DNA of 41,819 nucleotides from a virus (IMGVR_UViG_2721755721_000002), one strand, 5' to 3'. Counted from the first letter of the stretch, positions 175 through 11,623 are shown. Numbers and translations are program-made. Notes: a model not told the origin generated them from the sequence alone.

Positions 175-227
175 GGGCGGCAGAGCAGTCACGGAGTAAA
201 ACTGATACCGCCAAACGTCACCAGAAA
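175..227 (-). ncRNA. dicF: DicF small regulatory RNA (53 nt), followed on the minus strand by a T-run
   Basis: Reverse complement of 175-227 reads TTTCTGGTGACGTTTGGCGGTATCAGTTTTACTCCGTGACTGCTCTGCCGCCC, which I recognise from memory as E. coli DicF; it lies downstream of ydfA/B/C-like ORFs as in the Qin dicB operon. Not database-verified. Confidence 0.75.
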
Positions 228-3132: not shown

Positions 3133-3720
3133 ATGGTCCATGGCGTAAAAAACGCCACGAACCATGTAGGGGATGTTCAGACCGTCACTCCTGGCCAGCC
3201 CGCAGGCACGACACCGGAAGCCGATTCAGCGTATGCGCTGAAAGCCGATTCGGGCGCTGTGCAGCAGGCGATGACCGCTGGGCCGGAGCAATCACACCAA
3301 CTGCAGCAGCCTGAAGCCGATTCCGCCATTCAGCGGGAAGCCGATCGGGTAGTCCCGGAAAACACCGGGCAGCCTGTGGGACGAGTGGATTATCCGGATG
3401 TGTTCGAACAGGTCTGGCGGGAATACCCGTTACGAGCCGGGGCAAACCCGAAGAAATCCGCTTTCAGTGCCTGGAAGGCCAGATTACGCGAGGGGGTGCC
3501 ACCAGAGGCCATGCTGGATGGTGTAAGGCGTTACACAAGATACCTGGCTGCTACCGGGAAAACGGGAACGGAATTTGTTCAGCGAGCGACGACGTTTTTT
3601 GGACCGGACCGGAATTTTGAAAACCCCTGGTTGCTCCCGGTAAGCGGCACGAACAACCAGCGTTGTGTTAATCATATTTCTGAACCGGACACCGAAATTC
3701 CGCCGGGATTCAGAGGGTAA
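3133..3720 (+). CDS. Replication initiator, C-terminal part (195 aa), in frame with 2644..3078
   Basis: Contains FEQVWREYPLRAGANPKKSAFSAWKARL, a motif I associate with phage/plasmid replication proteins; frame continuity with the upstream ORF. Confidence 0.45.
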   Translation: MVHGVKNATNHVGDVQTVTPGQPAGTTPEADSAYALKADSGAVQQAMTAGPEQSHQLQQPEADSAIQREADRVVPENTGQPVGRVDYPDVFEQVWREYPLRAGANPKKSAFSAWKARLREGVPPEAMLDGVRRYTRYLAATGKTGTEFVQRATTFFGPDRNFENPWLLPVSGTNNQRCVNHISEPDTEIPPGFRG

Positions 3721-3757
3721 CAGATTTCAGGTCATGGGGTAATTTTCAGGAGGGCTT

Positions 3758-4033
3758 GTGGCAAAAGTTTTTACTCCCGAACTGCGGGAAGAAGTGAAGG
3801 CGCGCATTGTGGAACTGGTACGCAGAGATGGGCGAAAAACGCGTAAACAACTGGAAAATGAAACCGGGGCGACGAGACACCTGATAGAAGTTCTGGTGAA
3901 AGAGCTGGTAGTTAGTGGCGCAGTATATGGTTCAGGACATGGAATATTTCCTTCGGAGCAGGCTCGTAAGGACTGGGGAAAAGCCCGCAAAAAAAATGTC
4001 GAGAGCGGCAGTGAAAAAGAAGAGCGACCCTGA
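3758..4033 (+). CDS. Hypothetical small basic protein (91 aa, GTG start)
   Basis: ORF with AGGAGG-like RBS; no family recognised; overlaps the next ORF across an A8 tract. Confidence 0.35.
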   Translation: MAKVFTPELREEVKARIVELVRRDGRKTRKQLENETGATRHLIEVLVKELVVSGAVYGSGHGIFPSEQARKDWGKARKKNVESGSEKEERP

Positions 4034-4166
4034 CCTGATTTATTCATTGCTAGATGGCGAAATACGCCGTTACAACAGACGACAGAATATAATTTGTCGC
4101 GAGTGTCGTCAGAGCGAAGTTATGCAGCGCATACTGGAATTTTATCAGGGAAATGTTCGGTATTAA
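3996..4166 (+). CDS. Hypothetical small protein with CxxC (57 aa from ATG 3996; track ORF from 3915)
   Basis: MSRAAVKKKSDPDLIYSLLDGEIRRYNRRQNIICRECRQSEV...; ATG lies at the end of the A8 run 3989-3996. Confidence 0.3.
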   Translation: MSRAAVKKKSDPDLIYSLLDGEIRRYNRRQNIICRECRQSEVMQRILEFYQGNVRY

Positions 4167-4409
4167 TTGAAGTGACGAAATTAAAGAGCATTAGTTCAGA
4201 TATTAATTGACACTTCGATGGCACAGGCCCAGACCTAGTCTGGTTGTCAGCTTTGAGCTAGGTGAACGTTGGTATCGTTAGTTTGTATTAATCAACGGAG
4301 AATAGGCCAAATGACTTTTCTTTGCCTCTTTTAATTATAATTCAAGTTCAATTGATTACATTGAAGTACTAATGTGAGTCCGTCAAACAAATAGCTCAAG
4401 GAATAGGTC

Positions 4410-7208
4410 ATGTGGGGAAGTGAAAACAAACAAAATCTGGACGTACTGGATCCTGTGCAGTTGGTGCGTATCGAAGCGGTACACCGGGGGTTCCTTTACC
4501 AGCATCTTTACGCTGTAGGCTGCTTACTTTTGGCGCAGAGGGCAGCTATGGACTCAGTAACTGTCGAGCTTGATGAGGATATTGAGCTGAAATCCAAACA
4601 GGAACGTCTCTACATTCAGGTTAAAACCCGTTCAAAACCTATTATGCCCAACGATGTGTCGGGGGCTCTGGAGCGATTTGTAAAGCTCAGAAATGAGCAT
4701 ACTTCGGCAAACCGCGAAGGGGTGGCTTCTTTTGTGATTATTGTAAACCAGGCGCCTGGACCGCTGCTTCAGAAGATGATTGACGATAAAAAGCTTCCTT
4801 CTGATGTTCTTATTGTCTGGCCCCAGTCGACAGCTGGACGTCACCCGGCACTTCCGCCCGCATGGAGTACTCTGGCTGATGCGGCCACATGGTGTATCGC
4901 AGAAGCAGAAAAGCTGAAATTTTCACTATTGTCCCCAGAATCCTTGATTTGGAAGTTAGCAGGATTGGTTCAGCTTGCCGCCACCGGAGGCGATACCAAT
5001 GGACAACATACGTTTTTCACGGAAGAACTTACTGAACTATTTGAACAGTTGATCGTTCAGCTACAGGACTTTCCTGCACCACCAGCACTGTACCGCCCAC
5101 AGAACGAAGAACCTTCTCTCACATCTGGTGAGCGGATCCGTATCCTTTGTGGACTCTCAGGTGCAGGCAAGACAGCTTGGGCCGCACAGGCCGCATTACA
5201 CTCCACTGCACTTTGTGCTTATTACGACACCGGTGATCTTCCCGGTCCAGCTCTGGCCAGTACGCTGGTGCGCGAGATGGCTGCTAGATTTACAGCCCGT
5301 GACCAAGACGGTTTGCGCAGGATTTTGCTCCCCGGTGCCAGTGGTTTTGAGGCTCTTAGGAGTTTTGATACCTACCTGAAAGAGCAGGGTACCACCTTGG
5401 TGCTGGTTCTGGATAACGCCCATCGTGTACCTGCGGAAAATCTACTGGATGTTCTGAATGCAACTACACATATTCGTTTTGTGCTGTTGTGCCAGCCTCA
5501 CGAAAACGTTCGCGAACTGGAGGTCATGACGGGGCTACAGCGCGAGGGCCTGCAGGGATGGAATCTCGATACGGTAGCTGTCGTTGTAAACGATATCGGA
5601 GGATTTGCCACCGCTATGGGATACGAGCAGCTACGGGCTTACACTGGTGGTCTTCCCCTGTATGTAGAGAGCGCCGCAAAAATCGCCGTTTCTGATTATG
5701 AGCGTAATGTCGATGCTCTGTGTGCTGAACTCCAGCAACAAACCCATACTGCGGAAACCGCCCAAGAAATTATTCTGTCACGTGTATTTCAGGGATTTGA
5801 ATCACTACTTCAGAGCGCGCTGGCATTGTTCAGTCTCTCTGACGTAGGGCTGAGTCGCGAAGAGATTTCTACGCTCCTAATCAATTCGCTGAACATTTCA
5901 CCAAGCAGTGCTGCTTCTTTAATTAGGAAAATGCGCGCTACTGGCACTATTGAAATTTATGGAAACCAGACCCTGAAGGTACATGATGCTGTCAGGGGGC
6001 TAGGACTGCAACATCTGGAACTGATGGATCAGGGTATATCGAACAAAGCGCTACTAGCGCTGAAAGACCTTTTAGTTGAAAGTCTTCATAATACCCGCAA
6101 TACAAAACGGTTATCGTTGTTGACTCAACTTTATATTAAGCTCAATGATGTCACGACGTTGATCGAACTCTCAGGCCAAGAAATGTTTTATGAGATGGGC
6201 GTGACGGTCGACATTCTTGCAAGCTTGGAGCGTGCTGCAACATCGGACTTATTGGGACCTGTTCATAAATTCTGGGCATTGGATGGCCTTGTTTTCGTTG
6301 AGCTTAAAGACGGAATATCCGACCACATTGCTCAGAGGTTAAACATCATGGGAGCTTTACTTGCGGAGCACAAGTTCGGCTATCAAGAAGAGATGGCCTA
6401 TGCAATGAAACGAATGTTATTTTCGGCAGAAAGCAATGATGCACGAGAAGTTCAAAAGCTGGCACAGGAAGTCCGCCCCCAACTCCCAGATGAAGAACAT
6501 AAACGCATCTTTGACTACAACCATGCCATTGCACTCTGGAGATTAAAAAAACTCAAGGATGCTGAAACATTAAGCTGTAATGTTATACAAGGGTACTATT
6601 CTTTATTTGGTATCACACCTGCTGATGTCATAGGAAAAAACGCCGACGCATTATGGAAAACTATTAATCATTCCGAAAATATGCAGGAACACTTTAAACA
6701 TATGGCTGATGCTCTGGAGTTGCTGGCCAGAATTCGTGATGCGCAGGGAAAACTGTCACCATTACTGCGTATTCATTCGATGAAGTTCTACAATCTGGCC
6801 ATGGCCCCGGAATCCATGGTCAGGGTGGGCCAAGATCTGGCGGATGAGTTTGTTGCCATAAAGGATTACGACGGTGCCAAGGAAGTCATGGAGCAACATG
6901 TCCTGCCGGTTGTCAATGAGGCAGGTCTAGTACATCGACTGATTCAGGTTCGAAGCCAATACGCAGTCATATTAGCACTATCGGGTCAGCATAAAGCAGC
7001 TGATGTCGAAATGCAGCGCCTTGCTCCCTATATCGAAGGCCTCACAGGTGTACAGCGTCAAGAAATCCAAAATCAATCAAATTACATCGTACAGCTTGCC
7101 CATAAAGCAGCAAAGACTAAATTAACTGAAGTTTTTGGTGCGGTCGGCCGGAATGAACAATGCCCCTGTGGCTCGGGAATAAAGTACAAAAAATGTCACG
7201 GTGCCTGA
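4410..7208 (+). CDS. Large STAND-type P-loop NTPase with candidate N-terminal PD-(D/E)xK-like effector, C-terminal helical repeats and SEC-C zinc knuckle; putative single-gene antiphage protein
   Basis: 932-aa ORF; Walker A GLSGAGKT (aa 248-255), Walker B LVLVLDNAH (aa 330-338); N-terminal VELDEDIEL...YIQVKTRS; C-terminal CPCGSGIKYKKCHG; lower GC than flanking phage genes, AT-rich upstream. Confidence 0.75.
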   Translation: MWGSENKQNLDVLDPVQLVRIEAVHRGFLYQHLYAVGCLLLAQRAAMDSVTVELDEDIELKSKQERLYIQVKTRSKPIMPNDVSGALERFVKLRNEHTSANREGVASFVIIVNQAPGPLLQKMIDDKKLPSDVLIVWPQSTAGRHPALPPAWSTLADAATWCIAEAEKLKFSLLSPESLIWKLAGLVQLAATGGDTNGQHTFFTEELTELFEQLIVQLQDFPAPPALYRPQNEEPSLTSGERIRILCGLSGAGKTAWAAQAALHSTALCAYYDTGDLPGPALASTLVREMAARFTARDQDGLRRILLPGASGFEALRSFDTYLKEQGTTLVLVLDNAHRVPAENLLDVLNATTHIRFVLLCQPHENVRELEVMTGLQREGLQGWNLDTVAVVVNDIGGFATAMGYEQLRAYTGGLPLYVESAAKIAVSDYERNVDALCAELQQQTHTAETAQEIILSRVFQGFESLLQSALALFSLSDVGLSREEISTLLINSLNISPSSAASLIRKMRATGTIEIYGNQTLKVHDAVRGLGLQHLELMDQGISNKALLALKDLLVESLHNTRNTKRLSLLTQLYIKLNDVTTLIELSGQEMFYEMGVTVDILASLERAATSDLLGPVHKFWALDGLVFVELKDGISDHIAQRLNIMGALLAEHKFGYQEEMAYAMKRMLFSAESNDAREVQKLAQEVRPQLPDEEHKRIFDYNHAIALWRLKKLKDAETLSCNVIQGYYSLFGITPADVIGKNADALWKTINHSENMQEHFKHMADALELLARIRDAQGKLSPLLRIHSMKFYNLAMAPESMVRVGQDLADEFVAIKDYDGAKEVMEQHVLPVVNEAGLVHRLIQVRSQYAVILALSGQHKAADVEMQRLAPYIEGLTGVQRQEIQNQSNYIVQLAHKAAKTKLTEVFGAVGRNEQCPCGSGIKYKKCHGA

Positions 7209-7485
7209 GTCTTTGTACGACCATGCGGGCCTTATTGTCTTGCTATTGCTCTTATGGTTCGCCTTTCTGATTGATTTCATATTGGCGAGGTGACGGGAGT
7301 TAAGTAGAATGGCTGCGGGTGCTTGAGGCTATCTGTCTCAGGCATGAACACCAAAGGCAGATAGAGAAAAGCCCCAGTTAACATTACGCGTCCTGCAAGA
7401 CGCTTAACATTAATCTGAGGCTCAATCTATGAACGGCAAATCTAGGTTAGCCTCTTACGTGCCGAAAGGCAAGGAGAAGCAGGCT

Positions 7486-7641
7486 ATGAAGCAGCAAAAG
7501 GCGATGTTAATCGTCCTGATCGTCATCTGTTTAACCGTCATAGTGACGGCACTGGTAACGAGGAAAGACCTCTGCGAGGTACGAATCCGAACCGGCCAGA
7601 CGGAGGTCGCTGTCTTCACAGCTTACGAACCTGAGGAGTAA
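7486..7641 (+). CDS. hok: Hok/Gef-family type I toxin (51 aa)
   Basis: MKQQKAMLIVLIVICLTVIVTALVTRKDLCEVRIRTGQTEVAVFTAYEPEE is near-identical to HokD/RelF as I remember it; AAGGAG RBS; the track ORF 7429.. is an in-frame upstream extension. Confidence 0.85.
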   Translation: MKQQKAMLIVLIVICLTVIVTALVTRKDLCEVRIRTGQTEVAVFTAYEPEE

Positions 7642-7710
7642 GAGACCAGGCGGGGGAGAAATCCCTCGCCACCTCTGATGTGTCAGGCATCCTCAATGCA
7701 CCCGCACTTA

Positions 7711-7737
7711 ACCCGCTTCGGCGGGTTTTGTTTTTTC
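7711..7737 (+). terminator. Rho-independent terminator after hok
   Basis: ACCCGC-TTCG-GCGGGT hairpin followed by TTTTGTTTTTT. Confidence 0.55.
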
Positions 7738-7808
7738 CTGGCATTCTGGTTTACAATTCGCACGCCAGCCTGAACAACTGGCACCTGCTGCGCCAGCAGA
7801 GACAACCG

Positions 7809-8087
7809 ATGGCGCACGATACCAAATTACACAATTCTAATGATTCTGCTGTCTTTGCCAGCAGGTGCGGACGGCGTTTTCACGCATTCACATCAGACTG
7901 GTTCCAGCATCCTCCATGCACTGAAGAGCAGGCTGAATGGATAATTCAGTGTTACCGCAGGCGTGGATACGAGGTTAAGAAAGCTCTTAGTCTCGACTAT
8001 CGTCACTGGATAATCTCAGTCAGACTCCCTTACTCCGAACGCCCACCGCGTCCGTCCCGCACATTCCAGCAACGCATCTGGAGGTAA
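7809..8087 (+). CDS. Hypothetical protein (92 aa from ATG 7809)
   Basis: The track ORF 7680.. would run through the hok terminator hairpin, so the internal ATG is preferred; no family recognised. Confidence 0.35.
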   Translation: MAHDTKLHNSNDSAVFASRCGRRFHAFTSDWFQHPPCTEEQAEWIIQCYRRRGYEVKKALSLDYRHWIISVRLPYSERPPRPSRTFQQRIWR

Positions 8088-8088
8088 C

Positions 8089-9144
8089 GTGCGGGTATTA
8101 CTTCGACCTGTTCTGGTACCGGAACTCGGGCTGGTGATCGTTAAGCCGGGCCGTGAATCCATGCCGGTATTCCACAATACCCGGGTACTGGTGGAGCCGG
8201 AACCGAAAAGCATGCGTAATCTGCCGTCCGGGGTCGTTCCTGCCGTTCGCCAGCCGCTGGTGGAAGACAAAACATTGCTGCCGTTTTTCAGTAACGCACG
8301 GGTGATTCGTGCTGCTGGTGGTGCTGGTGCATTGTCTGACTGGCTGTTGCGCCATATTAAATCCTGCCAGTGGCCACACGGCGATTATCATCACAGCGAA
8401 ACCGTCATTCACCGTTATGGTACCGGCGCAATGGTGTTGTGCTGGCACTGCGACAACCAGTTGCGTGACCAGACCTCCGAATCACTCGGGCAACTTGCTC
8501 ATCAAAACCTGTCAGCATGGATGATTGACGTCATCGGTCACGCAATAAGCGGTACGCAGGAGCGTGAATTATCTCTGGCTGAATTATCCTGGTGGGCGGT
8601 CCGCAATCAGGTGGCGGACGCGCTACCGGAAGCGGTATTACGTCGTTCGCTGGGGTTGCGTGCGGAAAAAATCCGCTCAATGTACCGTGAAAGCGACATC
8701 GTGCCGGGAGAGCAGACCGCCACCAGCATACTGAAGCAGCGCACAAAAAATCTTGCGCCGATGCCTCACGCCCACCAGCAAAACCCGCCACAGGAAAAGA
8801 CGGTGGTAAGCATTGCCGTTGATCCGGAGTCACCGGCTCAGTATCTCCAGCGCCAGAAACCACAACGGGAAGAGATGCCCGTATACACGCGCTGGGTAAA
8901 AACGCAGAAATGCATGACGTGTGACAATCAGGCAGATGATCCGCATCACATCATTGGTCATGGACTAGGAGGGATGGGAACGAAGGCTGACGATTTGTTT
9001 GTTATTCCGCTGTGCCGTAAATGTCATAACGAACTGCACGCCGGGGTAAAAGATTTTGAAGAAAAACACGGCAGCCAGCTGTTGTTGCTGATTCGTTTTT
9101 TAATGCACGCGAGAAATTCGGGCGTCCTGAAGTGGAAAGCATAA
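8089..9144 (+). CDS. DUF968 / YdfU-like protein with C-terminal HNH-like zinc motif
   Basis: 351-aa ORF before rusA and Q, as ydfU is in Qin; C-terminal CMTCDNQADDPHHIIGH...CRKCHNELH resembles an HNH/zinc-finger signature. Confidence 0.5.
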   Translation: MRVLLRPVLVPELGLVIVKPGRESMPVFHNTRVLVEPEPKSMRNLPSGVVPAVRQPLVEDKTLLPFFSNARVIRAAGGAGALSDWLLRHIKSCQWPHGDYHHSETVIHRYGTGAMVLCWHCDNQLRDQTSESLGQLAHQNLSAWMIDVIGHAISGTQERELSLAELSWWAVRNQVADALPEAVLRRSLGLRAEKIRSMYRESDIVPGEQTATSILKQRTKNLAPMPHAHQQNPPQEKTVVSIAVDPESPAQYLQRQKPQREEMPVYTRWVKTQKCMTCDNQADDPHHIIGHGLGGMGTKADDLFVIPLCRKCHNELHAGVKDFEEKHGSQLLLLIRFLMHARNSGVLKWKA

Positions 9145-10406: not shown

Positions 10407-10482
10407 GGCCCTTTAGCTCAGTGGTGAGAGCGAGCGACTCATAATCGCCAGGCCGCTGGTTCAAATCCAGCAAGGGCCACCA
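10407..10482 (+). tRNA. tRNA with CAU anticodon (Ile2-lysidine or Met type), encoded CCA
   Basis: Cloverleaf by hand: acceptor GGCCCTT/AAGGGCC, D-stem GCTC/GAGC, anticodon loop CTCATAA, T-arm GCTGG-TTCAAAT-CCAGC. Confidence 0.8.
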
Positions 10483-10489
10483 TCACATA

Positions 10490-10566
10490 CCGCCATTAGC
10501 TCATCGGGATAGAACGCCAGCCTTCGAAGCTGGTTTCGCGGGGTTCGAGTCTCCGATGGCGGTCCA
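10490..10566 (+). tRNA. tRNA-Arg (anticodon UCG), encoded CCA
   Basis: Acceptor CCGCCAT/ATGGCGG, anticodon arm CCAGC-CTTCGAA-GCTGG, T-arm CGGGG-TTCGAGT-CTCCG. Confidence 0.7.
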
Positions 10567-10579
10567 TTATCGGTATTCT

Positions 10580-10656
10580 GCGTTTTTAGCTCAGCCGGAC
10601 AGAGCAATTGCCTTCTAAGCAATCGGTCACTGGTTCGAACCCAGTACAACGCACCA
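10580..10656 (+). tRNA. tRNA-Arg (anticodon UCU), encoded CCA
   Basis: Anticodon arm ATTGC-CTTCTAA-GCAAT, T-arm ACTGG-TTCGAAC-CCAGT, D-stem GCTC/GAGC; one acceptor-stem mismatch. Confidence 0.7.
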
Positions 10657-11422: not shown

Positions 11423-11623
11423 TTTTTTTGTTTGCTGTTTATTAAAAACACTTCTGCATGGTGAATCCCCCTGTGCGGTGGGGCAATCAGCAAGAAGGAA
11501 TATGGGGTAATCGCGGATTCAGGTGCTGATACTGAATTCACCGGGAGGCACCCGGCACCATGCTTTGCCACAAAAGTGTTATTTCTGTTTTTCTCAAACT
11601 ATCATCGTTATCCCTTTATTTTC

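What the first reader, a model, noticed from the sequence alone, without database searches (positions are those of the whole stretch)
7210..7740. hok type I toxin directly downstream of the STAND gene
A near-canonical 51-aa Hok with an in-frame upstream extension (Mok-like position) and its own terminator. An antisense Sok-like RNA is expected in 7210-7485 but I cannot delimit it. The region 3758-7740 could be one acquired immunity/addiction island.
Basis: partly seen in the sequence, partly recalled or inferred. Interest (0 to 1): 0.45.

Follow-up and report, generated by a model that had tools for sequence, protein, structure and literature searches.

The report
Intact prophage hok/mok/sok toxin cassette
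This is a complete but ordinary copy of the well-known hok/sok killer-gene cassette, found in about 70% of complete E. coli genomes; it belongs to the prophage backbone and was not acquired together with the neighbouring STAND-like gene.

Summary
The window holds a 51-aa Hok ORF (7486-7641), an in-frame 70-codon mok ORF (from 7429) and a terminator (7710-7727 plus a T run).

Hok matches Pfam HOK_GEF at E 1e-22 and is 50/51 identical to K-12 HokD. The leader scores 110 bits against Rfam RF01794.

All regulatory elements defined for plasmid R1 hok/sok can be placed:
- hok promoter 7282-7310 and mRNA start G7317
- tac 7317-7328 pairing with fbi 7691-7703
- the alternative tac/ucb pairing (7369-7375)
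- mok Shine-Dalgarno (SD) sequence 7417-7420 and dcb 7449-7454

Its promoter is TTGCCT-17-TAACCT (7472-7444). That promoter stretch is identical to that of hokW-sokW, which has been tested experimentally.

The cassette is at least 80% covered in 3810 of 5426 complete E. coli genomes, and RefSeq annotates it as hokD. The STAND-like SEC-C gene occurs in only 16 genomes. It sits in a variable cargo slot that holds CBASS, Kiwa and other defence genes in related prophages. The "single island" reading is therefore not supported.

One possibly new detail: the predicted Sok 5' tail is the most variable part of the cassette.

Verdict: already known, low interest.

The parts
7282..7310 (+). hok/mok promoter: -35 TTGGCG (7282-7287), 17-nt spacer, -10 TAGAAT (7305-7310)
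   Evidence: Promoter scan, 9 of 12 matches. The -10 lies 7 nt before G7317, which aligns with the R1 hok mRNA 5' end. The -10 marks the left edge of conservation in many relatives.
7317..7737 (+). Full-length hok (mok-hok) mRNA, about 420 nt, from G7317 to the terminator T run
   Evidence: Start placed by homology to R1 GGCGCUUGAGG and by position 1 of the Rfam model. MFE -170.6 kcal/mol, z -7.46. 94.9% of cells paired across 69 distinct relatives; 14 pairs with changes on both sides against 3.1 in shuffles. Both ends are inferred, not mapped.
7317..7328 (+). tac (translational activator element), GGGUGCUUGAGG
   Evidence: Pairs with fbi in the full-length MFE, with 7369-7375 once the 3' end is removed, and with 7335-7347 in the nascent 40-mer, giving the metastable hairpin. 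Invariant in 69 relatives. The roles are those described for R1 in PMC9841398.
7369..7375 (+). ucb (anti-SD of mok), AAGCCCC
   Evidence: In the full-length fold, 7370-7373 pair with 7419-7422, which overlap the mok SD. In the truncated fold, 7369-7375 pair with tac. The tac/ucb helix has 7 pairs and is 100% conserved.
7417..7420 (+). mok Shine-Dalgarno (SD) sequence, GAGG
   Evidence: 8 nt upstream of ATG 7429. Invariant in 69 relatives.
7429..7641 (+). mok ORF, 70 codons, in frame with hok (19-residue N-terminal extension MNGKSRLASYVPKGKEKQA)
   Evidence: ORF list. The ATG is invariant. Most relatives have the same 70-codon in-frame ORF; one group has a 19-codon mok that ends in a UGA overlapping the hok AUG.
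7449..7454 (+). dcb (downstream complementary box), AGCCUC, which pairs with GAGGCU 7417-7422 in the processed mRNA to form the Sok target hairpin 7417-7454
   Evidence: Truncated fold. The isolated hairpin folds at -14.7 kcal/mol, z -3.2. The basal five pairs are invariant or nearly so.
7471..7479 (+). hok Shine-Dalgarno region, AAGGAGAAG
   Evidence: Read from the sequence; 6 nt before ATG 7486. Conserved with R1 (AAGGAGAAGAAGG).
7486..7641 (+). hok ORF, 51 aa, MKQQKAMLIVLIVICLTVIVTALVTRKDLCEVRIRTGQTEVAVFTAYEPEE
   Evidence: Pfam PF01848, E 9.8e-23. 50/51 identical to K-12 HokD. RefSeq calls it hokD, WP_021570068.1.
7624..7627 (+). TACG at Tyr47 followed by GAA: sequence motif of the TadA A-to-I editing class (Tyr to Cys)
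   Evidence: Read from the sequence. The class is described in bioRxiv 10.1101/2025.08.07.668861. Editing at this site was not tested.
7691..7703 (+). fbi (fold-back inhibitory element), CCUCAAUGCACCC
   Evidence: 12 base pairs with tac in the MFE structure. 99.3% paired in 69 relatives; the only failure is an IS-truncated plasmid copy.
7710..7737 (+). Intrinsic terminator of hok mRNA: 7-bp stem, loop TTCG, T run
   Evidence: Terminator scan and fold.
7444..7472 (-). sok promoter: -35 TTGCCT (complement of 7467-7472), 17-nt spacer, -10 TAACCT (complement of 7444-7449)
   Evidence: Read from the sequence. The stretch 7441-7485 is identical to that of the hokW-sokW locus of Stx2 phage I. In that system, -10 mutations abolish antitoxin activity and sokW is seen on northern blots (PMC8621323). 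The simple promoter scan missed it because the -10 matches only 3 of 6.
7366..7437 (-). Predicted Sok antisense RNA, about 69-72 nt. It has a 5' single-stranded tail (7437-7424) that covers the mok AUG, a long hairpin (7423-7369) that covers the mok SD, and a 3' end GGGGCUUUUC.
   Evidence: The start is placed 7 nt after the -10, at an invariant C7437 (G in Sok). MFE -30 kcal/mol, z -5.08. The length agrees with the 71 nt reported for sokW. Both ends are inferred, not mapped.
7422..7443 (.). Hypervariable zone: Sok nt 2-6 and 10-16 plus the sok discriminator, equal to mok codons 2-5 and the spacer between the mok SD and AUG
   Evidence: Mean pairwise identity is 0.64 at 7432-7443 (17 alleles in 12 nt), against 0.91-0.96 in the flanking leader. 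The per-column profile shows the ATG, the SD, C7437 and the -10 core as invariant.

Best explanation
The region 7282-7737 is a complete, probably functional hok/mok/sok type I toxin-antitoxin cassette of the HokD/HokW subfamily. It sits in the early-right region of a Qin/Rac-like lambdoid prophage of E. coli.

Mechanism, inferred by homology to plasmid R1 hok/sok and to Sp5 hokW-sokW:
1. A weak constitutive promoter makes a stable mRNA of about 420 nt. Its 5' end (tac) first folds on itself and then pairs with the 3' fbi element.
2. In this closed form, ucb masks the mok ribosome-binding site, so neither mok nor hok is translated and Sok cannot bind.
3. Slow 3' trimming removes fbi. tac then pairs with ucb, and the mok SD/AUG hairpin (7417-7454) is exposed.
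4. While the cassette is transcribed normally, the short-lived antisense Sok (about 70 nt, minus strand, 7437-7366) binds the exposed hairpin through its single-stranded 5' tail. This blocks mok translation and, with it, the coupled hok translation. The duplex is cut by RNase III.
5. When Sok synthesis stops, the processed mRNA pool is translated. Hok, a 51-aa single-helix inner-membrane peptide, depolarises and kills the cell.

Most likely biological role here (about 0.4): as shown for the 93%-identical hokW-sokW, Sok is lost on prophage induction and Hok advances lysis and phage release. Prophage retention and abortive infection are the alternatives.

What is shown here: the sequence elements, the predicted pairings and their conservation. 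What is inferred: the transcripts, the processing, the toxicity and the role.
For: Identity of the cassette:
- Hok family match and near-identity to HokD.
- Rfam leader match of 110 bits.

Regulatory pairings:
- tac/fbi, tac/ucb, SD/dcb and the metastable hairpin are all reproduced by unconstrained folding.
- Folding z-scores are -7.5 for the mRNA and -5.1 for Sok.
- tac/fbi is 99.3% paired and tac/ucb 100% paired in 69 distinct relatives. Across the whole structure, 14 pairs show compensatory change against 3.1 in shuffles.

Conserved signals:
- The mok SD, the mok ATG, the predicted Sok +1 and the -10 core are invariant inside an otherwise variable stretch.
- The sok promoter region is identical to that of sokW, which is functional (PMC8621323).

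Distribution:
- The cassette is kept in 3810 of 5426 genomes and in 102 phage records.

The R1 mechanism is as summarised in PMC9841398.
Against: - No transcript, toxicity or antitoxin data exist for this allele.
- The sok -10 (TAACCT) matches the consensus at only 3 of 6 positions, and the hok -35 is weak.
- Chromosomal hokA, hokB and hokC loci were reported not to mediate post-segregational killing or to respond to rifampicin (cited in bioRxiv 10.1101/2025.08.07.668861).
- With mok in frame, ribosomes that start at mok would make a 70-aa extended Hok, whose activity is unknown.
- hokW sits in a different part of its phage (near int and ea), so its role may not transfer.
- The effects reported for hokW are modest: a 2-fold change in phage yield.
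Confidence: 0.85

Rival explanations
1. Decayed or silent locus: the cassette looks complete but is not active, like the chromosomal hok loci of K-12. It would persist only by hitch-hiking in the prophage.
For: Chromosomal hok loci were reported inactive in post-segregational killing and rifampicin tests. K-12 hokD itself is truncated. The promoter hexamers here are weak.
Against: There is no IS element, frameshift or deletion here. Every R1-defined element is present and pairs as expected. tac, ucb, fbi, the SD, the ATG and the Sok +1 are invariant in 69 relatives while neighbouring bases vary freely, which indicates purifying selection. The 93%-identical hokW-sokW is active.
Confidence: 0.08
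2. One acquired immunity/addiction island (3758-7740), in which hok/sok is functionally tied to the STAND-like SEC-C gene as its effector or as its addiction module.
For: The two genes are adjacent and on the same strand, with no terminator between 7208 and 7282. In one search, 16 records match from query position 1 (immediately after the SEC-C stop), and, 16 genomes carry the SEC-C gene. Apart from NZ_CP148579.1, I did not verify that these are the same genomes. In K-12, hokD lies directly downstream of relBE; co-transcription there is recalled from the literature, not tested here.
Against: The hok cassette is in 3810 genomes and the SEC-C gene in 16. Only 1 of 80 phage loci with the same Hok has the SEC-C gene. 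In the other loci, the same flanks enclose 767-4112 bp of unrelated cargo falling into 48 protein clusters. hok has its own promoter and terminator. No repeats flank the cargo. Genome-wide, hok is not enriched near defence systems (12% against 9.4% expected).
Confidence: 0.04
3. Same cassette and mechanism, but the main role is retention of the prophage or its cargo: cells that lose or silence the element are killed.
For: This is the paradigm role of R1 hok/sok. hok is enriched 4-fold in prophages. Here the cassette borders a slot of exchangeable cargo.
Against: Post-segregational killing was not seen for the chromosomal hok loci that were tested. Deleting hokW-sokW did not affect growth, and the reported phenotype concerned induction. 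A single-copy chromosomal element is rarely lost by segregation.
Confidence: 0.25
4. Same cassette and mechanism, but the main role is abortive infection: an incoming lytic phage shuts off host transcription, Sok decays and Hok kills the cell before the burst.
For: R1 hok/sok on a high-copy plasmid reduced T4 plating by 42% and plaque size by about 85%. The cassette lies next to a slot that holds CBASS, Kiwa, PD-Lambda-2-like, PDC-S15 and PDC-S39 genes in relatives.
Against: The T4 effect was weak and needed high copy number. hok is not enriched near defence systems genome-wide. Hok has no PADLOC model hit.
Confidence: 0.2

Closest known systems
hokD (relF) of the Qin prophage, E. coli K-12
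   Same: The Hok peptide is 50/51 identical (A10V). The hok SD, coding region, 3' UTR, fbi and terminator are the same. Both lie in the same kind of prophage and in the same position relative to rem/ydfU (DUF968) and Q.
   Different: The K-12 copy has lost everything upstream of about window 7471, where relBE sits instead. It therefore lacks the hok promoter, tac, ucb, mok and the transcribed part of sok. The window copy is the intact form.
hokW-sokW of Sakai prophage 5 / Stx2 phages (PMC8621323)
   Same: About 93% DNA identity over 7297-7713. HokW is 46/51 identical. The stretch 7441-7485, which holds the sok promoter, is identical. mok has the same in-frame 70 codons. This is the only close relative with experimental data: toxicity, Sok antitoxin activity, partial dependence on RNase III and Hfq, and loss of Sok with production of Hok on induction.
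   Different: The Sok 5' tail and mok codons 2-5 differ (AACGGCAAATCT against CTGAACACATGT). The C-terminal five residues of Hok differ. The Stx2 phage I copy lacks the AACCCGC/GCGGGTT terminator. It lies in the int/ea region of the phage, not between the replication genes and Q.
hok/mok/sok (parB) of plasmid R1
   Same: The architecture and all named RNA elements are shared: tac, fbi, ucb, dcb, the metastable hairpin, the mok leader ORF of 70 codons, and an antisense Sok with a 5' tail plus a hairpin. tac and fbi differ in a compensating way: GGCGC/GCGCC in R1 against GGGUGC/GCACCC here.
   Different: Hok is only 22/52 identical. The leader is shorter by about 16 nt in the first hairpin. R1 mok is out of frame with hok (A116 against A174), whereas here it is in frame. 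R1 is on a plasmid; this copy is in a prophage.
Chromosomal hokC/mokC (gef), hokA, hokB and hokE of E. coli
   Same: Same family. From my own knowledge of the K-12 annotation, mokC also shares its stop codon with hokC, so it is in frame as here.
   Different: These are different subfamilies: NCBIfam HokA scores only 38.9 bits against a cut-off of 89. In K-12 they are mostly inactivated by IS elements or point mutations (my own knowledge of Pedersen and Gerdes 1999, not read here).

Membership tests
[quoted passage not shown] | Small (about 50 aa) Hok/Gef peptide with an N-terminal transmembrane helix and a conserved periplasmic tail | tested here: met
   Pfam PF01848, 79.9 bits against a cut-off of 22, covering profile positions 1-42 of 42. 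50/51 identical to HokD.
[quoted passage not shown] | Conserved hok mRNA leader in sequence and structure | tested here: met
   Rfam RF01794, 110 bits against a gathering score of 59, full length 1-157, on the plus strand.
[quoted passage not shown] | Long-range 5'-3' pairing (tac/fbi) that closes the full-length mRNA | tested here: met
   12 base pairs, 7317-7328 with 7691-7703, in the unconstrained MFE structure. 99.3% paired in 69 relatives. This is computed, not probed.
[quoted passage not shown] | Alternative tac/ucb pairing and SD/dcb hairpin after 3' truncation, and a metastable 5' hairpin in the nascent RNA | tested here: met
   Folds of 7317-7688 and 7317-7356. tac/ucb is invariant.
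[quoted passage not shown] | mok leader ORF with its own SD that overlaps the hok start | tested here: met
   SD GAGG 7417-7420, ATG 7429, 70 codons. The SD and ATG are invariant. It is in frame with hok, unlike R1.
[quoted passage not shown] | Cis-encoded antisense Sok gene with its own promoter and terminator hairpin, complementary to the mok translation-initiation region | tested here: met
   Promoter TTGCCT-17-TAACCT, followed by a 5' tail, a hairpin and a U run. The promoter stretch is identical to that of functional sokW (PMC8621323). This is evidence at sequence level only.
[quoted passage not shown] | The Sok transcript exists and is unstable; hok mRNA is stable and processed at its 3' end | not testable with these tools
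   Needs northern blots, dRNA-seq or a rifampicin chase.
[quoted passage not shown] | Hok is toxic and Sok neutralises it | not testable with these tools
   Shown for HokW/sokW (46/51 identical) in PMC8621323, not for this allele.
HokD subfamily (RefSeq naming) | Protein named HokD by RefSeq (NCBI PGAP annotation) | tested here: met
   The identical DNA in NZ_CP148579.1 is annotated hokD, WP_021570068.1. In the NCBIfam release searched here, only the general Hok model NF007279 matched, at 49.5 bits, below its cut-off of 73. The name therefore comes from RefSeq's annotation of the identical sequence, not from an NCBIfam model match reproduced here.
Defence island or operon with the upstream STAND-like gene | Co-occurrence of the two genes across genomes | tested here: not met
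   3810 genomes against 16. 1 of 80 phage loci.

The most novel reading that the evidence does not exclude
The predicted single-stranded 5' tail of Sok (nt 2-6 and 10-16; window 7432-7436 and 7422-7428) is the fastest-changing part of an otherwise 91-99% conserved cassette. There are 17 alleles in 12 nt, while the mok SD, the ATG, the Sok +1 and the -10 stay invariant.

This would fit diversifying selection that keeps the several hok/sok copies carried by co-resident prophages (median 2, up to 10 places per genome) from cross-silencing one another. Each prophage would then keep a private antidote.

In addition, the left edge of the cassette (7232 or about 7297) serves as the conserved right-hand recombination arm of a cargo slot in Qin/Rac-like prophages. 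That slot exchanges defence systems, including CBASS, Kiwa, PD-Lambda-2-like, PDC-S15, PDC-S39 and the SEC-C/AAA/Cap4-like gene found here.
Probability: 0.35. Interest if true: 0.4.

Novelty: already known. Interest (0 to 1): 0.12.

Why it matters
As a locus it matters little. It is a textbook type I toxin-antitoxin cassette that RefSeq already names, and it is present in about 70% of complete E. coli genomes.

Three points are useful:
- The window gives an intact reference for the truncated K-12 hokD, with every regulatory element and Sok placed to the base.
- The neighbouring STAND-like gene should be judged on its own. It is cargo in a defence hotspot, not part of a hok-linked island.
- If the hypervariable Sok tail reflects selection for orthogonality, it would explain how many near-identical hok/sok copies coexist in one genome. 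It would also supply natural sets of non-cross-reacting antisense pairs.

Tried and rejected
- The consensus promoter scan did not report the sok promoter, because its -10 matches only 3 of 6 positions. I placed the promoter by homology instead.
- The Rfam family named "sok" hit the plus strand. Its 157-nt model starts at the hok mRNA 5' end and ends at the hok AUG. It therefore models the hok leader, not Sok, and does not delimit Sok by itself.
- Covariation in the upper part of the Sok-target hairpin: no pair changed on both sides and only 73% of cells were paired in a fixed register. The variants probably pair in different registers, so there is no support from covariation there.
- tac/fbi and tac/ucb are invariant in this set, so they show conservation, not covariation. 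The only compensating difference seen is against R1.
- Testing whether co-resident copies carry different Sok tails: only four genomes in the IMG/VR sets contributed two loci, which is too few, so I abandoned it.
- PADLOC has no model that matches Hok or Mok.
- No direct or inverted repeats flank the SEC-C cargo and there is no composition break. Exchange by homologous recombination in the flanks is therefore more likely than transposition.
- A literature search for a description of this prophage hotspot found nothing specific. That does not prove it is undescribed.
- A PDB sequence search with the SEC-C protein returned only the SecA-type C-terminal zinc motif.

Full report
**Observation**

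There is a 51-aa ORF at 7486-7641, and an in-frame ATG at 7429 gives a 70-aa ORF. The protein matches Pfam HOK_GEF over the whole profile, at E 9.8e-23 and 79.9 bits against a cut-off of 22. It is 50/51 identical to K-12 HokD (A10V), 46/51 to HokW and 22/52 to R1 Hok.

A terminator (AACCCGC-TTCG-GCGGGTT followed by a T run) lies at 7710-7737. A sigma-70-like promoter, TTGGCG-17-TAGAAT, lies at 7282-7310. Rfam RF01794 matches 7317-7491 full length at 110 bits, against a gathering score of 59. The upstream 932-aa gene ends at 7208.

**What the window is**

The same DNA occurs at 100% identity in the chromosome of E. coli Z1322HEC0003. There RefSeq annotates the gene order dicB, ydfC, YdaS/YdaT, a replication gene, a frameshifted DUF977 gene, a "SEC-C metal-binding domain-containing protein", hokD, a hypothetical gene, DUF968, RusA, Q, three tRNAs and lysis genes. 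This is a Qin/Rac-like lambdoid prophage. DicF, STnc100 and the tRNAs were also found by Rfam.

**Anatomy of the hok mRNA**

The alignment with an R1-type plasmid locus, phage Rac, phage Tritos, Stx2 phage I and K-12 hokD places the mRNA start at G7317. The window reads GGGUGCUUGAGG where R1 reads GGCGCUUGAGG.

Unconstrained folding of 7317-7735 gives -170.6 kcal/mol, with z = -7.46 against shuffles. In that fold:
- 7317-7328 (tac) form 12 base pairs with 7691-7703 (fbi).
- 7370-7373 (ucb) pair with 7419-7422, which overlap the mok SD GAGG.

Removing the 3' end (7317-7688) changes the fold. tac now pairs with 7369-7375, and GAGGCU 7417-7422 pairs with AGCCUC 7449-7454 (dcb). This forms a hairpin that presents the mok start. 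The first 40 nt alone form a hairpin in which tac pairs with 7335-7347, which corresponds to the metastable structure of the nascent RNA.

This is, element for element, the R1 scheme as summarised by Le Rhun et al. 2022 (PMC9841398).

**Sok**

The Rfam family is named "sok", but it matched the plus strand. Its consensus starts at the hok mRNA 5' end and ends at the hok AUG. It therefore models the leader, not the antisense RNA.

On the minus strand I find -35 TTGCCT (complement of 7467-7472), a 17-nt spacer and -10 TAACCT (complement of 7444-7449). The start is predicted 7 nt further on, at the complement of C7437. Downstream follow a single-stranded tail of about 14 nt that covers the mok AUG, a long hairpin that covers the mok SD, and GGGGCUUUUC ending at 7366-7369. 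The RNA is about 70 nt. The candidate folded (7439-7366) has an MFE of -30 kcal/mol and z = -5.08.

The stretch 7441-7485 is identical to the corresponding stretch of the hokW-sokW locus. Takada et al. 2021 (PMC8621323) studied that system. They detected sokW by northern blot, reported 71 nt of complementarity, and abolished antitoxin activity by mutating this same -10. Their primers YO-406, YO-421/422 and YO-597 match this stretch. The ends of Sok in the window are inferred, not mapped.

**Conservation**

The 531-nt query is at least 80% covered in 3810 of 5426 complete E. coli genomes. Genomes that have any match hold a median of 2 places and up to 10, and RefSeq calls the gene hokD. The query also matches 102 phage records.

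I aligned 70 loci, of which 69 are distinct, and projected the window's full-length structure onto them. It is 94.9% paired, with 14 pairs changed on both sides. Column shuffles give 3.1 such pairs, and slid controls give 5-9. The tac/fbi helix is 99.3% paired, and its only failure is an IS-truncated plasmid copy. The tac/ucb helix is invariant.

Conservation among 67 phage-borne relatives starts at about 7300 and ends at about 7729. I take this to mean the cassette is under purifying selection and is not decayed.

**Comparison with Qin hokD**

In K-12, homology to the window begins only at about 7471 (GGAGAAGCAGGCTATG). Upstream lies relBE. K-12 hokD therefore has no tac, ucb, mok or Sok. The window carries the intact form of that locus.

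**mok**

In R1, mok is out of frame with hok: the start codons are at A116 and A174. Here mok is in frame, so its product would be Hok with a 19-residue N-terminal extension. Among relatives, most have the same in-frame 70 codons. One group (nine loci, L014 type) has a 19-codon mok whose UGA overlaps the hok AUG as AUGA. Phage Rac is annotated with an out-of-frame mok. This agrees with the published view that it is mok translation, not the Mok protein, that matters.

**The "island" idea**

The SEC-C gene region (4200-7300) is at least 80% covered in only 16 genomes. Of 80 IMG/VR loci that encode 98-100% identical Hok, one has it, and that locus is identical to the window. By contrast, 46 share DUF977 (3600-4200) and about 60 share 7680-9144.

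Between the end of DUF977 homology (about 4158 or about 4258) and the start of hok homology (7232, or 7294-7305), these loci carry 767-4112 bp of unrelated DNA that falls into 48 protein clusters. The cargo includes:
- a CBASS cyclase with a 2TM effector
- a PD-Lambda-2_C-like protein
- PDC-S15
- PDC-S39
- a KwaB-like protein with a membrane partner
- QueH, DUF551 and others

No repeats flank the cargo in the window. So hok and DUF977 are backbone, and about 4262-7231 is exchangeable cargo in a defence-rich slot.

The 932-aa protein has three recognisable parts: a weak N-terminal Cap4/LmuA/DUF4297-like nuclease signal, a P-loop domain (AAA_22) and a C-terminal SEC-C zinc motif. It matches no known defence-system model with confidence.

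A recent survey found hok enriched 4-fold in prophages but not enriched near defence systems (bioRxiv 10.1101/2025.08.07.668861).

**A detail that may be new**

Inside the conserved leader, 7432-7443 has a mean pairwise identity of 0.64 and 17 alleles. The flanks are at 0.91-0.96 and the coding region at 0.989.

Column by column, the SD (7417-7420), the ATG (7429-7431), C7437-A7438 and the -10 core never vary. Positions 7422-7425, 7427-7428, 7432-7436, 7439 and 7441-7443 vary, by up to 2.1 bits.

The variable positions are Sok nt 2-6 and 10-16 plus the sok discriminator. In R1 the 5' tail of Sok is the part that makes first contact with the target (my own knowledge of Franch and Gerdes; not read here). 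Selection to keep co-resident copies from cross-reacting is a reasonable reading. [quoted passage not shown] I could not test the prediction, because only four genomes contributed two loci each.

**Mechanism and role**

I commit to the R1-type mechanism: a closed stable mRNA, slow 3' processing, a tac/ucb switch, Sok blocking mok and hence hok, and Hok killing when Sok is no longer made. Confidence is 0.85 that the cassette is an intact member of this family and works this way.

For the biological role, the only experiment on a close relative showed the following. sokW disappears on RecA-dependent induction, HokW appears about one hour before the endolysin, lysis starts about 40 minutes earlier, and phage yield doubles. 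I rate that role at about 0.4, prophage retention at about 0.25, abortive infection at about 0.2, and no role at about 0.1.

One inference of mine bears on this. hok is co-oriented with the early-right operon, so transcription from that operon on induction would run against the sok promoter. That could explain the loss of Sok. It was not tested.

**Verdict**

This is a known, already annotated, very common cassette. Interest is low.

Noticed in passing
window 4262-7231 (flanks 4158-4261 and 7232-7305); loci L007-L086: The slot between the DUF977 gene and the hok cassette is a variable cargo site in Qin/Rac-like prophages. It holds 767-4112 bp and 48 protein clusters in 57 loci. The cargo includes CBASS (cyclase plus 2TM effector), PD-Lambda-2_C-like, PDC-S15, PDC-S39, a KwaB-like protein with a membrane partner, QueH and DUF551. 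There are two classes of breakpoint on each side.
   Followed up: partly
window 4410-7208 (+): A 932-aa protein with a weak N-terminal Cap4/LmuA/DUF4297-like nuclease signal (residues 25-119), an AAA_22/AAA_16 P-loop (239-364), a long helical region and a C-terminal SEC-C zinc motif (914-931). It is present in only 16 of 5426 genomes and makes no confident hit to any PADLOC system. It is a candidate single-gene defence protein sitting in a defence slot.
   Followed up: partly
window 7422-7443: This is the most variable stretch of the cassette among relatives (17 alleles in 12 nt). It coincides with the predicted Sok 5' tail and mok codons 2-5, while the SD, the ATG, the Sok +1 and the -10 core stay invariant.
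   Followed up: partly
L014, L024, L032, L035, L049, L064, L068 (leader region); L003: In one group of otherwise near-identical cassettes, mok is a 19-codon upstream ORF whose UGA overlaps the hok AUG (AUGA). In phage Rac, mok is annotated out of frame. In the window and most other loci it is in frame, at 70 codons.
   Followed up: partly
window 7624-7627: Tyr47 is encoded by TAC followed by GAA, giving the TACG motif of the TadA A-to-I editing class that recodes Tyr to Cys in hok mRNAs. Cys30 is present as a possible disulfide partner.
   Followed up: no
window 7317-7491 (+): Rfam RF01794, named "sok antitoxin", matches the sense strand. It spans the hok leader from the mRNA 5' end to the hok AUG, so a hit to it marks the hok leader and not the Sok transcript.
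   Followed up: yes
window 3758-4166: The DUF977 gene is split into two overlapping ORFs (91 and 83 aa). It is annotated as a frameshifted pseudogene in the identical RefSeq record.
   Followed up: no
window 7201-7293 (+): A 30-codon ORF with a strongly hydrophobic tail (LIVLLLLLWFAFLIDFILAR) ends just before the hok -10. Its last roughly 60 nt (7232-7293) are conserved in about half of the related loci, while the part upstream of 7232 is not. It may be the remnant 3' end of an older gene.
   Followed up: no
window 175-226 (-), 10407-10653 (+), 11427-11599 (+): DicF sRNA, three tRNA genes downstream of Q (annotated Ile, Arg, Arg in the identical record) and an STnc100 sRNA match. These are typical of EHEC/EPEC-type lambdoid prophages.
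   Followed up: no
phage record PP818812.1 (hit H32): A phage deposited as Actinobacillus phage vB_Apl-pPE4 carries this E. coli-type hok cassette at 97% identity. That is unexpected for a Pasteurellaceae host and suggests a mis-assigned or contaminating E. coli prophage.
   Followed up: no
window 7710-7737 (+): The hok terminator lies within the early-right operon, between the replication genes and Q. It could act like a nin-region terminator for read-through transcription. This is inference only.
   Followed up: no
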